Origin: a virus
Lineage: Duplodnaviria > Heunggongvirae > Uroviricota > Caudoviricetes
Length of the DNA: 5,360 nt
Virus record (IMG/VR): IMGVR_UViG_3300022758_000450
Direction: 5' to 3' (one strand)
Part shown: positions 1 to 5,360 of the stretch, one piece after another
How positions within the stretch are numbered: position 1 is the stretch's first letter
Layout: every line of letters starts with the position of its first letter
Position numbers and translations under genes: made by a program
Notes under the pieces: model-generated
Seen by the model: the letters and a program-made list of their open reading frames with translations, nothing else
Told to the model about the DNA's origin: nothing
Database searches by the model: none

Positions 1-116
1 AGCCATCATCAAAGCCCGAGATCGCGACGTTCGGTTGCCAGCATGATGAGATCGGCATATTTCACGGGTGTACTCATAACTGGTGGTAACCCGTATTTCT
101 CACGGATTACGGCGTT

Positions 117-416
117 CTATTCTTTTTTCTTCCATTCCGATTTATAGTCGAAGGAAGAATGGCAGTTCAGTGGCGCCGGGATGTCCTGGCAATACGCTTC
201 TGTTGCATCATGCATTAACGCTTCAAAAGCAAATTCCTGCGGTACCAGTTGGCTGCAAAGCACCGCATGTTGGGCGACGCTGTAGAAATGTGAAAGATGT
301 CCAGCAAAGCGACAGATATTTGAAAGAGAAACCGCGATATCGTTAATAACGATGTTGTCTTTATCTATCCTGTCATAATAAAAATGCTTCCCGGAAAAAG
401 TTTTAATAAATGACAT
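117..416 (-). CDS. HD-domain phosphohydrolase (YfbR/YfdR-like 5'-deoxynucleotidase family), segment ending at an in-frame TAG
   Basis: Track ORF 117..443 (-). Translation carries the HD-domain metal-binding pattern (AGHLSH, VAQHAV, ALMHDATEAYCQD). Preferred start is ATG at 416 (GGAG 6 nt upstream on the minus strand); the track start at 443 is a GTG with no SD. The same frame stays open past the TAG (117-119) for 35 more codons to tandem TGA-TGA at 6-11. Confidence 0.6.
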   Translation of the reverse strand: MSFIKTFSGKHFYYDRIDKDNIVINDIAVSLSNICRFAGHLSHFYSVAQHAVLCSQLVPQEFAFEALMHDATEAYCQDIPAPLNCHSSFDYKSEWKKKE

Positions 417-540
417 TTTGTTCTCCACGTATATGCACTGCACCGCGCTGAATTCGGGTAAAAGGAAGTCCTCACCGTCCGGCGATTATTGAGTCAATTA
501 CATTTCCATAAATGCCCCCGTAGGGGCGGTTAGTTTCTCC

Positions 541-629
541 ACAAAACAGAGAAGAACACCTGCGGTGGCTGCCGCCCGGATGGATTGGGTTATGAGCCCG
601 TCGTCCGGTGATGCTCTTCTCTGTTTTGT
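541..629. repeat. Perfect 15-bp inverted repeat (ACAAAACAGAGAAGA / TCTTCTCTGTTTTGT) flanking a 59-bp GC-rich core; function unknown
   Basis: Arms 541-555 and 615-629 are exact reverse complements. Lies in a GC-rich stretch (about 472-900) where the track shows only mutually overlapping, low-complexity ORFs on both strands. A GC hairpin (514-527) lies just to the left. Confidence 0.5.
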
Positions 630-929
630 AAAAAGGACGATACCAGCCGGAAGCAAGGGTACAAACTGGTACCGCCAGGACTACACACAGCATAAAGTTG
701 TGGTGCCGGGTGCCTCCCGGTGCCTGGCGAAGGTTGCACACCAGACGGGTGGGTATCCACAGAAGGTCGACTGTCAGCCTCAACCTTAACCCGCGTGCGC
801 TGAGCCGCATTCACCACAACGCTAAGGATTCTCTTTGGTTGAAAATACTTAGCTGTTATGTGCCTGTCTTTTCACCACTTCAGGCTCGGTGGTATCCTTT
901 TAAGCCCGTATACATAAAAGGAAAATCAA

Positions 930-1175
930 ATGACTTTTGATGAAAAAGAACTTGATAATGCAATTAATAAAATCATCGTAACGTCGCTCTTTTCCTGTCT
1001 CAGCGACACTCAGCAGAAACAGTTCTACGAATCGGCTTTCAACATGATCGAGCGTTGTTGTTTCTGCGATGCCGACGAGTTACCTGAAAAAATCAGGAAA
1101 CAGTTGGCTGATGCTCTTCGAGTGCGACTTTCTGACCAATTTTCTGAAATGTGCTCTCCGAATTTGGACAAATAG
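930..1175 (+). CDS. Hypothetical small protein (81 aa)
   Basis: ATG at 930 preceded by AAAGGA (917-922) at about 7 nt spacing. Translation is charged with balanced composition and 4 Cys. 3' end overlaps the convergent ORF 1093..1410 by 83 nt. Confidence 0.5.
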   Translation: MTFDEKELDNAINKIIVTSLFSCLSDTQQKQFYESAFNMIERCCFCDADELPEKIRKQLADALRVRLSDQFSEMCSPNLDK

Positions 1176-1410
1176 AAAAGGACCATTTCCATTCAGGGTC
1201 TGATGGAAATACTTCAGCCTGTTCCAAAGCACGGCGTAAAGAGAACACAACTCCAGCCATAATCTGATGTTTCCCATTGGTCCAGCTATCGCCGCTCTGA
1301 TCTACAGGGGCGGCTATGTCGTATGACCAAACGACTTCACAGTTATTGTTTAAAATCTGGACTTTCATTTCATACACCTGCTTTAACATGAGTGCATAGT
1401 GGCACAACAT
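1093..1410 (-). CDS. Hypothetical protein (105 aa, or 91 aa from internal ATG at 1368); first ORF downstream of the putative leftward early promoter
   Basis: Track ORF. ATG at 1410 lacks a clear SD; internal ATG at 1368 has AGGTG 6 nt upstream. Not arginine-rich, so not recognisably N-like. Overlaps the + strand ORF 930..1175 at the 3' end, so one of the two may be spurious. Confidence 0.4.
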   Translation of the reverse strand: MLCHYALMLKQVYEMKVQILNNNCEVVWSYDIAAPVDQSGDSWTNGKHQIMAGVVFSLRRALEQAEVFPSDPEWKWSFSICPNSESTFQKIGQKVALEEHQPTVS

Positions 1411-1497
1411 GACTCAACGAATCACCCTAGACTTTATATGCCCCAGGTGGCTACTTCGTGGGCGTCCTGCCTGTCCGTGATAGCTTACATTATGTTG

Positions 1498-1510
1498 CTA
1501 CTTAAAGTAG
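1498..1510. promoter_or_regulatory. OL-like operator: 13-bp palindrome CTACTT-A-AAGTAG matching the OR operators in 12 of 13 positions
   Basis: Perfect dyad around a central A. Its reverse complement CTACTTTAAGTAG differs by 1 nt from the twice-repeated CTATTTTAAGTAG at 3728-3763. On the minus strand it is followed directly by a near-consensus -10 (CATAAT, plus coordinates 1489-1494) upstream of the ORF starting at 1410. The -35 is weak. Confidence 0.55.
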
Positions 1511-1731: not shown

Positions 1732-1983
1732 TTACTTTGTAAGTTCTAGAACTCGTTGAGCCAGCCCTTTAAATTGTTCGTTAAAGGCGTCTCTGCTTGA
1801 TTTCATTGTATTTAAGGCATGCCCAAATTGCCCTGAATCGCGAATTTGCTGATCACTGATGGAGAAAACAGGTGTCGCTAGTTGTTGGCTTATTGCGATT
1901 AATGAGTTGAAATCGGAAATATGCGCAAGATCATAGGCTGATAAATCTCCACTGACTGTTGTTTTGTTAATTGCATGTTGCAC
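1732..1983 (-). CDS. Hypothetical small protein (83 aa), distal gene of the ParA-like cassette
   Basis: Track ORF with GTG start at 1983, placed 1 nt after the TAA (1985-1987) that closes the ParA-like reading frame, which suggests coupled translation. Followed by the terminator. No recognisable motif. Confidence 0.5.
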   Translation of the reverse strand: MQHAINKTTVSGDLSAYDLAHISDFNSLIAISQQLATPVFSISDQQIRDSGQFGHALNTMKSSRDAFNEQFKGLAQRVLELTK

Positions 1984-1984
1984 T

Positions 1985-2815
1985 TTATCTCGTGGAATTA
2001 TGCAGGTAATTTTTTTCTAGATTTGGCACTAAGATCGAATCAACAGCATCACGGATAGCTGCCATCCATTTTTCGAAAGATTTTACAGGTGCTCCTTTAC
2101 GCGGCCTGTATCTCTGCTGAATCATACCTAGAAACTGCGGTGCATTTTTTAATTGATTGTGAAGAGTTACCATCATTATTTTCTTTAAATAATGCTAATT
2201 CTTTGTGCCAGCGAGGTATATTTTTTTGAGAGAGAGCGAATTGCTTGCCAGCAAAAAAAGTCTGGAGCTACAGGTACGATAAAATAGTCACTTGACATGA
2301 GAACTACTTCATTTAAACCTCCAACATTAGGGCTGAGATCATAAAGAATGTAATCAATATTATTCTTCATGGCGATTAGCTGTAATATTTTTTGGCAGGT
2401 TCCCTGGTATATTTTCTTGTAGCAGGAATACCAGCAGCAATTTTTTAGAGAAACACTTATCTGTGAATCTAAGTCCGAAACATCTAAATGTCCGGGAAGA
2501 AGCAGAAGGTTTTTCATGCAGTGTAGGGTGTAATTTTCCCGTTTCTTTTTCAAGGTATGCTTCAGGTTGTCCGCCATTAATCAAATATTCTACAATAGGT
2601 CCAAGAGTTAAGTTATCTCTGCTAGAATAAAAAGAATCTAAACCCTCATCAATCTTTTCATAGCCAAGAACCATTCCTGTTAGATTACATTGCGAATCAA
2701 GGTCAACCATCAATACTTTCTTGCCTTCATCCGCAAGTGCCCATCCAAGATTGAAGGTTGTTGTGGTTTTACTTACCCCACCTTTATGATTAAAAAAACA
2801 AATTGATTTTGTCAT
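1985..2815 (-). pseudogene. ParA/Soj/MinD-family P-loop ATPase gene, reading frame broken twice (+1 then -1)
   Basis: Track ORF 2360..2815 gives the N-terminus with deviant Walker A (MTKSICFFNHKGGVSKTTTTFNLGWALADEGKKVLMVDLDSQ). ORF 2185..2577, in another frame, gives the Walker B region (IDYILYDLSPNVGGLNEVVLMSSDYFIVPVAPDFF), closely matching Soj YDYIIIDSPPALGPL...IIPIQCEFF. ORF 1985..2176 is back in the first frame and resembles a ParA C-terminal region. Total span is about 277 codons, typical for Soj-type ParA. AAGGA lies 9 nt upstream of the ATG at 2815. Confidence 0.7.
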
Positions 2816-2984: not shown

Positions 2985-3746
2985 CTAAAGCCGGTTGTAT
3001 TTAATTGATTCGTGTATCAATGCTTTGCCCATAACATAAAGTTGATCTTGGGACTTCTCATCAATGTACCATTTCTCATAGGCTGGATTATCCGAAAGAA
3101 CGGCGAGTTTGTTGCCTTGCATTTGTAGACGTTTAACGTGGAACGTCTTACCATAAACGAAAGAGTAAACACCATCAGTTTGGAAGTTGCGAACAGAAAT
3201 GTCGACAAACAGTCGATCTCCGGAAACTAGAGTAGGGGACATGCTGTCGCCATTTACAGTCATAACTTTAATATCATCTTGAGAACGATTACCGAAAAGA
3301 GAACGGGCATGCTCTGTTGTGAACTCAATGGCGTAGAGCACATCAACATAGTCTGAAAGCATATAGGTCCCAGGTCCTGCGCTAACGCTAAGATCCAAAA
3401 CTTCTATCCTGTATACATCGGGTTTTGTTGGATTGGGGATGCTTGCCATTTCCTTACATCCTTCTCTCTCACCAACACCATATTCTAAATATGAAGCTGA
3501 TACCCCCAGAGCCAATGCAAGTTTATTCATGACAGAGGCACGAGGCTTCGCAGCGCCGATTGTGTATCGCCGCGCCATTTCATATGTAACGCCCACAAGA
3601 CTTTTGAGTTGGGTGACAGAAATTCCCTTGTTTGTCATTAGCTCGTTTAGTCTCTTGGCGAAATCTGGATACTTCTGTTCTTCTACCATAGGTAGAAGAT
3701 TACTCGCATCACATACGCTAGTCATTTCTATTTTAAGTAGTTGCAT
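2985..3746 (-). CDS. cI: CI-type phage repressor: N-terminal HTH (XRE family) plus C-terminal LexA-like S24 autopeptidase domain
   Basis: Track ORF. HTH segment FAKRLNELMTNKGISVTQLKSLVGVTYEMARRY; probable Ala-Gly cleavage site in LSVSAGPG; catalytic Ser in VNGDSMSPTL and Lys in HVKRL. Divergent from the cro-like gene with operators between. Start is ambiguous (ATG at 3746, 3725 or 3689); none has an SD, consistent with a leaderless PRM-type transcript. Confidence 0.88.
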   Translation of the reverse strand: MQLLKIEMTSVCDASNLLPMVEEQKYPDFAKRLNELMTNKGISVTQLKSLVGVTYEMARRYTIGAAKPRASVMNKLALALGVSASYLEYGVGEREGCKEMASIPNPTKPDVYRIEVLDLSVSAGPGTYMLSDYVDVLYAIEFTTEHARSLFGNRSQDDIKVMTVNGDSMSPTLVSGDRLFVDISVRNFQTDGVYSFVYGKTFHVKRLQMQGNKLAVLSDNPAYEKWYIDEKSQDQLYVMGKALIHESIKYNRL

Positions 3747-3787
3747 TTTGCTATTTTAAGTAGCATCATCCCTCTGAATTTCAGAGG
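3728..3787. promoter_or_regulatory. OR region: two identical 13-bp operators (3728-3740, 3751-3763) and a perfect 17-bp palindrome (3771-3787) between the divergent cI and cro starts
   Basis: CTATTTTAAGTAG occurs twice with 23-bp centre-to-centre spacing. Each copy is an imperfect dyad (10 of 13) and carries TAAAAT on the minus strand, a -10-like hexamer a few nt from the cI ATG candidates. CCTCTGAA-T-TTCAGAGG (3771-3787) is a perfect palindrome centred 22 bp from operator 2 and overlaps the cro SD. Confidence 0.6.
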
Positions 3788-3795
3788 AGAAAGGT

Positions 3796-4059
3796 ATGTC
3801 ATCTCAAAACTACACAGAGAAAGCAGTAAAAGCTGCGGGAAAATCTTTATCTGAAGTAGCCCGTCACTTTGGTTTTAAGTCCACTCAATCCGTCGCTAAT
3901 TGGGTAATTAACAATCAAGTCCCGTCAGAACGGGTTTTACAACTTTGTGAGTTGGGAAACTGGTCCGTGACCCCTCATGAACTGCGTCCTGATATTTACC
4001 CCAATCCAAATGATGGATTACCTGAGTGCTATTCAAAAGTTAGCGGTTCAGCTGCGTAA
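3796..4059 (+). CDS. cro: Cro-like small HTH regulator (YdaS-type Cro/CI family)
   Basis: ATG at 3796 with GAGGAG (3784-3789) 6 nt upstream. 87-aa protein with HTH segment KSLSEVARHFGFKSTQSVANWV. Divergent from the repressor gene across the operator region. Confidence 0.8.
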   Translation: MSSQNYTEKAVKAAGKSLSEVARHFGFKSTQSVANWVINNQVPSERVLQLCELGNWSVTPHELRPDIYPNPNDGLPECYSKVSGSAA

Positions 4060-4087
4060 ACGTAACCACAGAAACGAGGAGTTAACC

Positions 4088-4645
4088 GTGGGTAAGCATC
4101 ACTGGAAAGTAGAAAAACAGCCTGAGTGGTACGTGAAAGCAGTCAGAAAAACTATCGCAGCGTTGCCGGGGGGTTACGCTGAAGCTGCTGACTGGCTGGA
4201 CGTAACAGAGAACGCATTATTTAACCGCCTTCGTGCCGATGGCGATCAGATTTTCCCGCTGGGATGGGCAATGATTTTGCAACGTGCTGGTGGAACTCAC
4301 TTCATTGCTGACGCTGTGGCGCAGTCTGCAAATGGCATCTTTGTGTCTCTTCCTGACGTCGAGGATGTGGACAATGCCGATATTAACCAGCGTCTGCTGG
4401 AAGTCATTGAACAGATCGGCAGTTATTCCAGACAGATTCGTTCAGCAATTGAAGACGGTGTAGTGGAACCGCATGAGAAGACAGCAATTAACGACGAGCT
4501 GTATCTCTCAATTTCGAAGCTGCAGGAGCATGCAGCACTTGTCTACAAAATTTTTTGCATTTCAGAAAGTAATGACGCCCGCGAGTGTGCAGCTCCGGGC
4601 GTCGTGGCGTCGATTGCTTCTGGTTGTGGAGAAACTAACGCATGA
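4088..4645 (+). CDS. CII-like / YdaT-family early regulator (185 aa from GTG start)
   Basis: Track ORF 3977..4645. Preferred start is GTG at 4088, same frame, with GAGGAG (4076-4081) 6 nt upstream and no overlap with cro. Position (directly after cro, before the replication gene) and size match the YdaS-YdaT arrangement recalled from Rac-type prophages. Stop TGA overlaps the next ATG (ATGA at 4642-4645). Confidence 0.65.
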
Positions 4646-4989: not shown

Positions 4990-5360
4990 ATGAGCACTAA
5001 ATTAACCGGCTATGTATGGGATGGTTGCGCAGCGTCAGGCATGAAATTATCCAGCGTGGCAATTATGGCCCGCCTGGCTGATTTCAGTAATGACGAAGGT
5101 GTGTGCTGGCCATCAATTGAAACCATTGCCCGTCAGATTGGCGCGGGGATGAGTACCGTCAGGACGGCTATCGCACGGCTGGAAGCAGAAGGCTGGTTAA
5201 CGCGTAAGGCGCGTCGCCAGGGTAACCGCAATGCGTCGAATGTTTATCAGCTTAACGTTGCGAAGCTTCAGGCAGCGGCATTTTCTCAACTGTCAGATTC
5301 TGACCCGTCAAAATCTGACGCATCAAAATCTGACCCGTCAAAATTTGATGCGTCGAGTCG
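4990..5360 (+). CDS. Phage replication initiator, O-like, N-terminal HTH DNA-binding domain (5' partial; continues beyond window)
   Basis: ATG at 4990 with AGAGG 6 nt upstream. N-terminus MSTKLTGYVWDGCAASGMKLSSVAIMARLADFSNDEGVCWPSIETIARQIGAGMSTVRTAIARLEAEGWL is the winged-helix N-domain typical of lambdoid prophage replication proteins (recalled as Rac YdaU-like), followed by a repetitive SDPSKSD linker. No stop before the window ends. Confidence 0.85.
   Translation, partial: MSTKLTGYVWDGCAASGMKLSSVAIMARLADFSNDEGVCWPSIETIARQIGAGMSTVRTAIARLEAEGWLTRKARRQGNRNASNVYQLNVAKLQAAAFSQLSDSDPSKSDASKSDPSKFDASS
5299..5360. repeat. Iteron-like 15-bp tandem direct repeats inside the replication initiator gene (candidate origin); array runs off the window
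   Basis: TCTGACCCGTCAAAA (5299-5313), TCTGACGCATCAAAA (5314-5328), TCTGACCCGTCAAAA (5329-5343), then a degenerate TTTGATGCGTCGAGT (5344-5358). Each unit has an internal dyad TGAC-NNN-TCA. Confidence 0.6.

What the first reader, a model, noticed from the sequence alone, without database searches (positions are those of the whole stretch)
3771..3787. Perfect 17-bp palindrome overlapping the cro ribosome-binding site
Seen in sequence: CCTCTGAA-T-TTCAGAGG is an exact 8+1+8 dyad (expected roughly 0.1 times by chance in 5 kb). It is centred 22 bp from operator 2, continuing the operator phasing, but is unrelated in sequence to the CTAYTTTAAGTAG operators. It overlaps the GAGGAG SD of cro. Possible roles: a binding site for a second regulator (Cro itself, the CII-like protein, or a host factor), or an mRNA hairpin occluding the cro SD.
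Basis: seen in the sequence. Interest (0 to 1): 0.45.

Follow-up and report, generated by a model that had tools for sequence, protein, structure and literature searches.

The report
Stem-loop masking the cro ribosome-binding site
The 17-base palindrome in front of a prophage's cro gene is a conserved single-strand stem-loop that buries the ribosome-binding site, not a protein-binding site, and it seems placed so that only RNA starting upstream of cro's own promoter start would fold it.

Summary
The palindrome CCTCTGAA-T-TTCAGAGG is at 3771-3787 exactly as described and overlaps the cro Shine-Dalgarno sequence GAGGAG (3784-3789). Alone it is weak evidence: about 17% of shuffled windows contain an equally good dyad.

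The case rests on relatives. Prophages with the same CTAY-N5-GTAG operators yielded 49 distinct leaders.
- Most leaders of the window's promoter type (23/28) pair the 6-8 nt after the -10 hexamer with the SD or start codon.
- The arm sequences differ and show compensatory changes (CG/GC/AU).
- There are 19 G-U pairs against one C-A mismatch.
- Loops range from 3 to 11 nt, and the register against GGAG shifts.
- The Cro recognition helix and the operators stay constant.

This indicates a plus-strand RNA hairpin that occludes the SD. It rules out a fixed-geometry site for Cro, CI or CII.

One complication remains. The best promoter, TTGCAT-17-CATCAT, predicts a start at G3776, inside the 5' arm, so PR mRNA would lack the anti-SD.

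My preferred reading is IS10-like fold-back inhibition, in which only transcripts entering from upstream are silenced. The main rival is a 5'-terminal hairpin on PR mRNA, which needs a start further upstream than predicted. Mapping the 5' end would decide between them.

This is a known kind of mechanism in an undescribed place.

The parts
3771..3787 (+). The 17-bp perfect dyad CCTCTGAA-T-TTCAGAGG. As RNA it is a 7-bp stem (3771-3777 with 3781-3787) and a 3-nt loop (3778-3780).
3769..3790 (+). Full predicted helix in RNA that includes the 5' arm. The 7-bp stem is extended by C3770-G3789 and U3769-A3790 with A3788 bulged. Five of the six SD bases are paired. Folding energy -10.7 kcal/mol.
3771..3778 (+). 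5' arm (anti-SD, CCTCTGAA). It occupies the promoter discriminator and the predicted +1 of PR.
   Evidence: In 22 of 23 significant class I leader types the first paired base is 0 or 1 nt after the -10 hexamer.
3780..3787 (+). 3' arm (TTCAGAGG), which contains the first four bases of the SD.
3784..3789 (+). Shine-Dalgarno sequence GAGGAG of cro, 6 nt upstream of the ATG.
3796..4059 (+). cro: 87-aa YdaS-family HTH protein (Pfam PF15943, E = 2e-11).
3741..3746 (+). Predicted PR -35 hexamer TTGCAT, abutting the left operator.
   Evidence: Read from the sequence. It co-shifts by 3 bp with the -10 in class II relatives.
3764..3769 (+). Predicted PR -10 hexamer CATCAT (CATTAT in most relatives), 17 bp after the -35 and abutting the right operator.
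   Evidence: It is too weak (3 of 6) to be called by the consensus scan.
3776..3777 (+). Predicted PR transcription start (G3776 or A3777, 7-8 nt after the -10, pyrimidine followed by purine). Inferred, not measured.
   Evidence: Inferred and the general sigma-70 spacing rule. In the related CP-933P and Rac switches, starts mapped by 5' RACE or primer extension match predicted sigma-70 promoters.
3751..3763 (.). Right operator CTATTTTAAGTAG (OR1-like), in the PR spacer.
3728..3740 (.). Left operator CTATTTTAAGTAG (OR2-like), next to the PR -35.

Best explanation
The dyad is the DNA image of a plus-strand RNA stem-loop. Its 3' arm is the cro Shine-Dalgarno sequence. Its 5' arm (the anti-SD) is the 6-8 nt that directly follow the PR -10 hexamer. 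Any RNA containing both arms folds (about -10 kcal/mol in the window), hides the SD, and should translate Cro poorly. The best-supported promoter, TTGCAT-17-CATCAT, predicts that PR starts at G3776/A3777, at the 3' end of the 5' arm. PR-initiated cro mRNA would therefore lack the anti-SD and be translatable. Rightward transcripts entering from upstream (antisense to cI) would fold back and be silent. That is the logic of IS10 'fold-back inhibition', here insulating a lysis-lysogeny switch gene from read-through. Shown here: the structure is under selection on the plus strand, and it is not a fixed-geometry protein site. Inferred: the PR start position, the existence of upstream-initiated RNA, and the effect on translation. 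Nested confidence: selected plus-strand RNA hairpin that occludes the SD, about 0.8; read-through-specific (fold-back) version, about 0.45.
For: (1) In a 13-sequence alignment in the window's register, 89% of cells pair and 3 of 7 pairs carry double compensatory changes (CG/GC/AU; AU/GC). None of 500 shuffles reaches the covariation score, and slid controls drop to 33-63% paired. RNAalifold predicts the same helix on its own. (2) Among 49 distinct leaders sharing the operators, 25 fold better than 95% of shuffles that keep the SD fixed (Fisher combined P = 3e-17). Examples include CCTCTAC/GTAGAGG, CCTGTGA/TCACAGG, CCTATGA/TCATAGG, CCTTGG/CCAAGG, CCTTCTG/CAGGAGG, GCTTTCC/GGAGAGC and CTACTC/GAGTAG. 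(3) Strand asymmetry: stems contain 19 G-U-type pairs but only one C-A mismatch, and plus-strand folds are more stable than minus-strand folds (mean -6.4 vs -4.8 kcal/mol; Wilcoxon p = 0.001). (4) Loop length is 3-11 nt, the helix centre varies by 5.5 bp, and the register against GGAG shifts. (5) The helix starts 0-1 nt after the -10 in 22 of 23 significant types. The -35 and -10 shift together by 3 bp between the two promoter classes, which supports the hexamer assignment and hence a start inside the 5' arm. (6) Mean probability that the SD is paired is 0.64 when the RNA begins at the -10 end and 0.31 when it begins at the predicted start. For the window the folds are -10.7 vs -4.1 kcal/mol. 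(7) The same layout recurs in unrelated operator groups: L106/L129 and L133 (read from the leader printed, not scored).
Against: No transcription start has been measured for this prophage type, and I found no paper on these operators. I found no conserved rightward promoter upstream and no specific source of read-through; plus-strand promoter-like sites in the window are at chance level. Rho would be expected to stop most untranslated antisense RNA before it reaches cro. The stem is nearly absent from sister leaders with the other promoter geometry (2 of 21), so it is not essential to this kind of switch, and the insulation idea does not explain that difference. The window's own fold is not significant on its own. 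The window lineage has a non-conserved extended -10 (TGcTATTTT, 3749-3757) that could start RNA near 3764 and place the whole hairpin in a cro mRNA.
Confidence: 0.45

Rival explanations
1. The same RNA hairpin, but present on the normal PR cro mRNA as a 5'-terminal stem-loop. PR, or an overlapping second promoter, would start 6 or more nt further upstream than the consensus rule predicts. The stem would then hold Cro translation down and/or protect the mRNA 5' end from RppH- and RNase E-dependent decay.
For: All the covariation and strand-asymmetry evidence applies equally. It needs no unknown source of read-through. Class I promoters carry two overlapping -10-like hexamers (TAGCAT and CATTAT), and some carry two -35-like hexamers (TTGTTG and TTGATT). 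The window has an extended -10, TGcTATTTT, at 3749-3757 that would start RNA near 3764. SD-sequestering stems on a gene's own mRNA are well documented, for example IS200 tnpA.
Against: The helix begins 0-1 nt after the best -10 hexamer in 22 of 23 types. Sigma-70 starts normally lie 6-10 nt after the -10. Even the alternative -10 (TAGCAT) would remove the outer C-G pairs, yet these are the most conserved (CG in 13 of 13). The extended -10 is not conserved, even among near relatives. In the related CP-933P and Rac switches the mapped starts agree with standard promoter prediction.
Confidence: 0.3
2. A DNA operator for a dimeric regulator (Cro, CI, the CII-like YmfL, or a host factor) centred at about +4 of PR.
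For: It is a perfect dyad at a classical repressor position, 22 bp from OR1. Symmetric half-site changes could in principle mimic covariation.
Against: Arm separation varies from 3 to 11 nt and the register shifts. Arm sequences differ among phages whose Cro recognition helix (FKSVQSVANWI) and CI operators are identical. G-T but not C-A departures are tolerated. There is no second copy near OL, elsewhere in the window, or in 12.5 kb of the prophage. It is unrelated to the YdaT site TTGATT-N6-AATCAA (abstract).
Confidence: 0.04
3. A hairpin in the non-template (plus) DNA strand of the PR initial transcribing complex. It would form when scrunching exposes -6 to about +12 and would affect promoter escape or open-complex lifetime. 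Overlap with the SD would be incidental.
For: It explains why the 5' arm coincides with the discriminator and start site, and it predicts the same plus-strand G-T tolerance. It needs no upstream transcript.
Against: I know of no precedent for sigma-70 promoters. In several types the 3' arm lies 18-25 nt past the predicted start (the L051, L094, L064 and L066 leaders), beyond the roughly 15 nt that scrunching exposes. The 3' arm always falls on the SD or the start codon.
Confidence: 0.06
4. No function. The dyad would be a by-product of a pyrimidine-rich discriminator facing a purine-rich SD, plus shared ancestry.
For: The single-sequence statistics are weak. A pyrimidine tract and a purine tract pair easily once G-U is allowed. 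The sister class II leaders manage without the stem.
Against: Shuffles that preserve the composition of the upstream part still give p < 0.05 in 23 of 28 class I types. Compensatory changes involve mixed pairs (G-C, A-U in reversed orientation), not only pyrimidine-purine pairs. Different registers and sequences converge on the same outcome.
Confidence: 0.08

Closest known systems
IS10/Tn10 (and IS50) 'fold-back inhibition' of transposase translation on read-through transcripts (Davis, Simons & Kleckner 1985; recalled from my own knowledge, not retrieved here)
   Same: An inverted repeat whose 3' arm covers the ribosome-binding site. The gene's own promoter starts between or within the arms, so its own mRNA lacks the 5' arm while externally initiated RNA folds and is not translated. 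The geometry predicted here is the same: 5' arm on the discriminator and +1, 3' arm on the SD.
   Different: The host element is a prophage switch gene, not a transposase at the edge of a mobile element exposed to outside promoters. No start site, read-through RNA or translational effect has been measured here. There is no antisense RNA partner.
IS200 tnpA 5'-UTR stem-loop that sequesters the SD (PMC4513863)
   Same: A cis-acting leader stem that directly pairs the SD and blocks 30S binding.
   Different: In IS200 the stem lies within the gene's own mRNA, and read-through is handled by a separate terminator. Here the 5' arm appears to lie upstream of the gene's own start, and there is no terminator.
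Lambda-type OR operators bound by CI and Cro; YdaS/PaaR2 (CP-933P) and RacR/YdaS (Rac) switch regions (PMC8630535, PMC9638921)
   Same: Same genetic context: divergent cI-like and YdaS-type cro genes, operators overlapping PR and PRM, a probably leaderless cI, and a CII-like gene downstream.
   Different: Operators keep fixed spacing and their sequence co-varies with the recognition helix. This dyad does neither. The Rac ydaS leader has no anti-SD. No such hairpin is mentioned in those papers (zero occurrences of 'hairpin').
RNA thermometers (ROSE, fourU) and other SD-masking leader hairpins
   Same: A short stem pairing the SD with a pyrimidine-rich 5' strand.
   Different: Thermometers have deliberately weak, mismatched stems inside the mRNA. 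This stem is perfect (-10 kcal/mol) and straddles the predicted start. There is no Rfam match.

Membership tests
SD-sequestering cis-acting RNA leader hairpin | Complementary arms, with the SD inside the 3' arm | tested here: met
   3771-3777 pairs with 3781-3787 and the helix extends to 3769/3790. Five of six SD bases are paired.
SD-sequestering cis-acting RNA leader hairpin | Pairing conserved through compensatory and G-U changes in relatives, on the coding strand | tested here: met
   covariation; 25 of 49 leaders p < 0.05; plus strand more stable than minus, p = 0.001; 19 G-U pairs vs 1 C-A mismatch.
SD-sequestering cis-acting RNA leader hairpin | Both arms are present in an RNA made in the cell | not testable with these tools
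   No start-site data for this prophage type. Promoter prediction puts +1 at 3776/3777, inside the 5' arm.
SD-sequestering cis-acting RNA leader hairpin | Disrupting the stem raises translation, and compensatory change restores repression | not testable with these tools
   Requires reporter fusions or toeprinting.
IS10-type fold-back inhibition of read-through transcripts | The gene's own transcription start lies between or within the arms, so its own mRNA lacks the 5' arm | tested here: inconclusive
   Predicted from TTGCAT-17-CATCAT, and from the helix beginning 0-1 nt after the -10 in 22 of 23 types. Not measured.
IS10-type fold-back inhibition of read-through transcripts | Transcripts enter from upstream in the sense direction | tested here: inconclusive
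   No conserved upstream rightward promoter. Plus-strand promoter-like sites are at chance level. Existence of such RNA is unknown.
Operator for a dimeric HTH regulator (CI, Cro, CII-like) | Fixed half-site spacing across relatives | tested here: not met
   Apical loops of 3-11 nt; helix centre 21.5-27 bp from OR1; shifting register.
Operator for a dimeric HTH regulator (CI, Cro, CII-like) | Site sequence tracks the recognition helix of the cognate protein | tested here: not met
   The identical Cro helix FKSVQSVANWI goes with at least five different dyads, while the operators are unchanged.
Operator for a dimeric HTH regulator (CI, Cro, CII-like) | Further copies at other controlled promoters (for example OL) | tested here: not met
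   One copy in the window and in 12.5 kb of the EC93 prophage at up to 3 mismatches. By contrast CTAY-N5-GTAG occurs at 4 loci.
Intrinsic (Rho-independent) terminator | G+C-rich stem followed by a U-tract | tested here: not met
   The stem is followed by AGAAAGG on the plus strand and GATGATGC on the minus strand. The terminator scan finds nothing here.
Any curated Rfam family | Covariance-model match | tested here: not met
   No match at 3700-3830 even at E <= 1.

The most novel reading that the evidence does not exclude
A large clade of lambdoid prophage switches places an anti-Shine-Dalgarno element exactly on the untranscribed discriminator of PR. Only PR-initiated RNA could then make Cro, and any transcript reading in from upstream would be translationally silent. 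This would be a fold-back insulator protecting a bistable switch from transcriptional noise. It would be mirrored by a dyad centred on the leaderless PRM start of cI.
Probability: 0.4. Interest if true: 0.6.

Novelty: new member of a known kind. Interest (0 to 1): 0.42.

Why it matters
Lysis-lysogeny switches are usually explained entirely by protein-operator interactions. Here a conserved RNA structure at cro, apparently excluded from PR's own transcript by the position of the start site, would add a translational safeguard. Stray rightward transcription across the immunity region could not produce Cro and flip the switch. If the start instead lies upstream, the stem sets the Cro translation rate and therefore the switching threshold. 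Either way it affects prophage stability in about 4% of complete E. coli genomes (206 of 5426). It also gives a compact natural example of promoter-coupled translational insulation that could be reused in synthetic circuits. The practical lesson is that a short perfect palindrome next to operators should be tested against variable-spacing relatives before it is called a binding site.

Tried and rejected
- **Protein operator:** rejected because of variable spacing, the constant Cro recognition helix and a single copy.
- **Terminator:** rejected because there is no U-tract.
- **Known RNA family:** no Rfam match.
- **Minus-strand RNA** (a PRE-type leftward transcript): rejected because the G-U pattern and fold energies favour the plus strand.
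- **Alternative upstream PR -10 hexamers:**
  - TAGCAT would sit only 14 bp from the -35 and would still cut the conserved outer pairs.
  - TAAGTA lacks the -7 T and has no -35.
  - The extended -10 TGcTATTTT is not conserved.
- **Other sigma factors:** no sigma-32, sigma-54 or sigma-28 motif found by eye.
- **Experimental start-site evidence:**
  - No characterised phage shares this immunity type.
  - This type is largely absent from O157, and no Sakai or EDL933 record appeared among the listed hits.
  - No paper cites these operator sequences.
- **Generality in distant YdaS-type cro leaders:** only 7 of 30 leaders significant, so the feature is enriched but not universal. The Rac ydaS leader lacks it.
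- **Single-sequence significance:** not reached.

Full report
**Context**

The window is the immunity region of a lambdoid E. coli prophage. Positions 3600-4100 are 100% identical to the strain EC93 chromosome, and the same region occurs in 206 of 5426 complete E. coli genomes.

PGAP in EC93, together with Pfam, gives these genes:
- a CI-like XRE/peptidase-S24 repressor at 2985-3689 on the minus strand;
- a YdaS-family Cro at 3796-4059 on the plus strand;
- a CII-like YmfL (Phage_CP76) at 4088-4645 on the plus strand.

The motif CTAY-N5-GTAG occurs at 1498, 3683, 3728 and 3751. That is six strand matches against 0.15 expected.

**Observation**

Positions 3771-3787 read CCTCTGAATTTCAGAGG, a perfect 8+1+8 dyad that overlaps GAGGAG (3784-3789), 6 nt before the cro ATG.

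On its own it is weak evidence. About 17% of Markov shuffles of the window contain a dyad at least as good. The RNA fold of 3764-3810 (-10.7 kcal/mol) is matched by 16 of 200 shuffles.

**Relatives**

I collected relatives in four ways:
- Cro-based scans of IMG/VR;
- Cro-based scans of one genome per species;
- a pattern scan for the conserved block next to the left operator;
- near relatives from E. coli genomes.

This gave 49 distinct sequences running from the PR -10 to the ATG, all sharing the same operators. Further Cro variants with RPDLHP in place of the window's RPDIYP motif appeared.

In these sequences a TTGNNN hexamer lies 17 bp (16 in some leaders) upstream of a -10-like hexamer. 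There are two geometries:
- **Class I**, which includes the window: the -10 is CATTAT, CATCAT or TATTAT and begins immediately after the right operator.
- **Class II**: both hexamers sit 3 bp further left, and the -10 is TAGTAT, overlapping the operator.

This joint 3-bp shift is good evidence that these hexamers are the real PR elements.

**The structure is conserved, not the sequence**

In class I, the 6-8 nt that follow the -10 pair with the SD, or in a few types with the start codon. The arm sequences differ between types:

| Leader | 5' arm | 3' arm |
|---|---|---|
| window | CCTCTGA | TCAGAGG |
| L294 | CCTCTAC | GTAGAGG |
| L368 | CCTGTGA | TCACAGG |
| L407 | CCTATGA | TCATAGG |
| L048 | CCTTGG | CCAAGG |
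| L049 | CCTTCTG | CAGGAGG |
| L094 | GCTTTCC | GGAGAGC |
| L335 | CTACTC | GAGTAG |
| L064 | GATTTC | GAGATC |

- **Pair counts.** On a 13-sequence alignment in the window's register, 89% of cells form standard pairs. Three of seven pairs carry changes on both sides. None of 500 shuffles reaches the observed covariation score. Sliding the partner by 1-3 columns drops pairing to 33-63%.
- **Independent prediction.** RNAalifold predicts the same helix.
- **Shuffle test.** Shuffling only the part upstream of the SD gives p < 0.05 for 25 of 49 leaders (Fisher combined P = 3e-17). That splits as 23 of 28 in class I and 2 of 21 in class II (Fisher exact p = 4e-7).

**RNA or single strand, not a protein site**

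- Apical loops range from 3 to 11 nt. The helix centre lies 21.5-27 bp from the operator centre. The register relative to GGAG shifts between types. No dimeric HTH protein tolerates that, and the 22-bp 'phasing' in the window is therefore coincidental.
- Cro proteins with the identical recognition helix FKSVQSVANWI accompany at least five different dyads, while the operators stay the same. Cro therefore most likely reads the CTAY operators, as lambda Cro reads the CI operators.
- The stems hold 19 G-U-type pairs and only one C-A mismatch. Plus-strand folds are more stable than the reverse complement (mean -6.4 vs -4.8 kcal/mol; Wilcoxon p = 0.001). Selection therefore acts on the plus strand, which is the cro sense strand.
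- The 17-mer is unique in the window and in 12.5 kb of the EC93 prophage.
- There is no U-tract and no Rfam match.

**The complication**

In 22 of 23 significant class I types the helix begins 0 or 1 nt after the -10 hexamer. With CATCAT at 3764-3769, a sigma-70 start is expected 7-8 nt later, at G3776 or A3777, where a pyrimidine is followed by a purine. That is the 3' end of the 5' arm.

A canonical PR transcript, GAAUUUCAGAGGAG..., lacks the anti-SD. The mean probability that the SD is paired falls from 0.64 to 0.31. The window's fold falls from -10.7 to -4.1 kcal/mol. Yet positions upstream of this predicted start show compensatory changes, so some RNA containing them must matter.

In the related YdaS-type switches of CP-933P and Rac, starts mapped by 5' RACE or primer extension agree with ordinary promoter prediction, and the cI-like gene is leaderless. 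I found no conserved alternative promoter that would start upstream of 3770. The window's extended -10, TGcTATTTT (3749-3757), is not conserved.

**Mechanism proposed**

The reading that fits both lines of evidence is the one known from IS10 and IS50 as fold-back inhibition (recalled from my own knowledge). The anti-SD is placed just upstream of the gene's own start. PR-initiated mRNA is then open for ribosomes, and any rightward transcript arriving from upstream folds and cannot make Cro. In a lysogen that would stop stray transcription across the CI-occupied operators from producing the protein that flips the switch.

Nested confidence:
- about 0.8 that this is a selected SD-masking RNA helix;
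- about 0.45 for the read-through-specific version;
- about 0.3 for the main rival, in which the real start, or a second overlapping promoter, lies further upstream and the helix is a 5'-terminal stem on cro mRNA that limits translation or stabilises the message.

A non-template-strand DNA hairpin in the initial transcribing complex would predict the same strand asymmetry. It has no precedent I know of, and it cannot reach 3' arms lying 18-25 nt past the predicted start in several types.

**Weaknesses**

- No start site or read-through RNA has been measured.
- Plus-strand promoter-like sites upstream are at chance level.
- Rho should curb antisense RNA before it reaches cro.
- Class II sisters lack the stem, and I cannot explain why.
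- In more distant YdaS-type cro leaders with other operators the feature is enriched but not general: 7 of 30 leaders are significant. L106/L129 reproduce the layout there. L133 also shows it in the leader printed, but it was not scored. Rac lacks it.

**Comparison with what is known**

SD-sequestering leader stems are a well-known kind, for example IS200 tnpA. I found no description of one at a lambdoid cro gene. No characterised phage shares this immunity type, and no paper in the library cites these operators. I therefore file it as a new member of a known kind. The fold-back layout at a phage switch is the most novel reading that remains open.

**Verdict**

The protein-site alternative and the phasing argument are not supported. 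Mapping the cro 5' end, together with arm-swap translational fusions driven from PR and from an upstream promoter, would settle the mechanism.

Noticed in passing
window 3679-3699: A second perfect dyad, TCTTCTACC-ATA-GGTAGAAGA, straddles the cI start codon (ATG at 3689-3687 on the minus strand). It contains CTAC-N5-GTAG, the operator core, and is conserved in sequence across the clade, with a CCAC...GTGG variant. It is centred exactly on the predicted leaderless PRM start; the candidate PRM is -35 ATGACT (3725-3720) and -10 TAATCT (3702-3697). It is likely an OR3-like autoregulatory operator. It has the same 'start site in the middle of a dyad' layout as the cro hairpin.
   Followed up: partly
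window 1732-2815 (minus strand): The ParA-family gene is split into four ORFs by seven single-T insertions in T runs (2010, 2145, 2221, 2388, 2412, 2441, 2510) relative to EC93, where it is an intact 358-aa gene. The pattern looks like homopolymer sequencing error in the source assembly rather than a true pseudogene.
   Followed up: partly
window 1498-1510: A perfectly palindromic operator copy, CTACTTAAAGTAG, lies 2.2 kb left of the switch and is probably OL. The cro dyad has no counterpart there.
   Followed up: partly
window 627-842 (minus strand): A full-length match (model positions 1-206) to the Rfam sRNA family STnc100. It scores 37 bits, below the gathering score of 47, with E = 1.6e-5.
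   Followed up: no
window 5299-5354: A 15-bp tandem repeat, TCTGAC(C/G)CGTCAAAA, in 3.3-3.7 copies inside the 3' part of the HTH replication-initiator-like gene (encoding SKSDPSKSDAS repeats). These are probably origin iterons.
   Followed up: no
window 3749-3757: An extended -10-like element, TGcTATTTT, lies inside the right operator and is present in the window's lineage only. It could start RNA near 3764, so that the whole hairpin would be in a cro transcript. It is not conserved in relatives.
   Followed up: partly
window 1-1416: The left part of the window is mosaic relative to EC93: 92-96% identity in rearranged blocks and no match for 893-1415. From 1416 onward identity is 99.5%.
   Followed up: no
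relatives L005-L407, PR region: There are two promoter geometries on the same operators. In class II both the -35 and the -10 lie 3 bp further left, so the -10 (TAGTAT) overlaps OR1. The anti-SD stem is almost confined to class I (23 of 28 vs 2 of 21). The reason is unexplained.
   Followed up: partly
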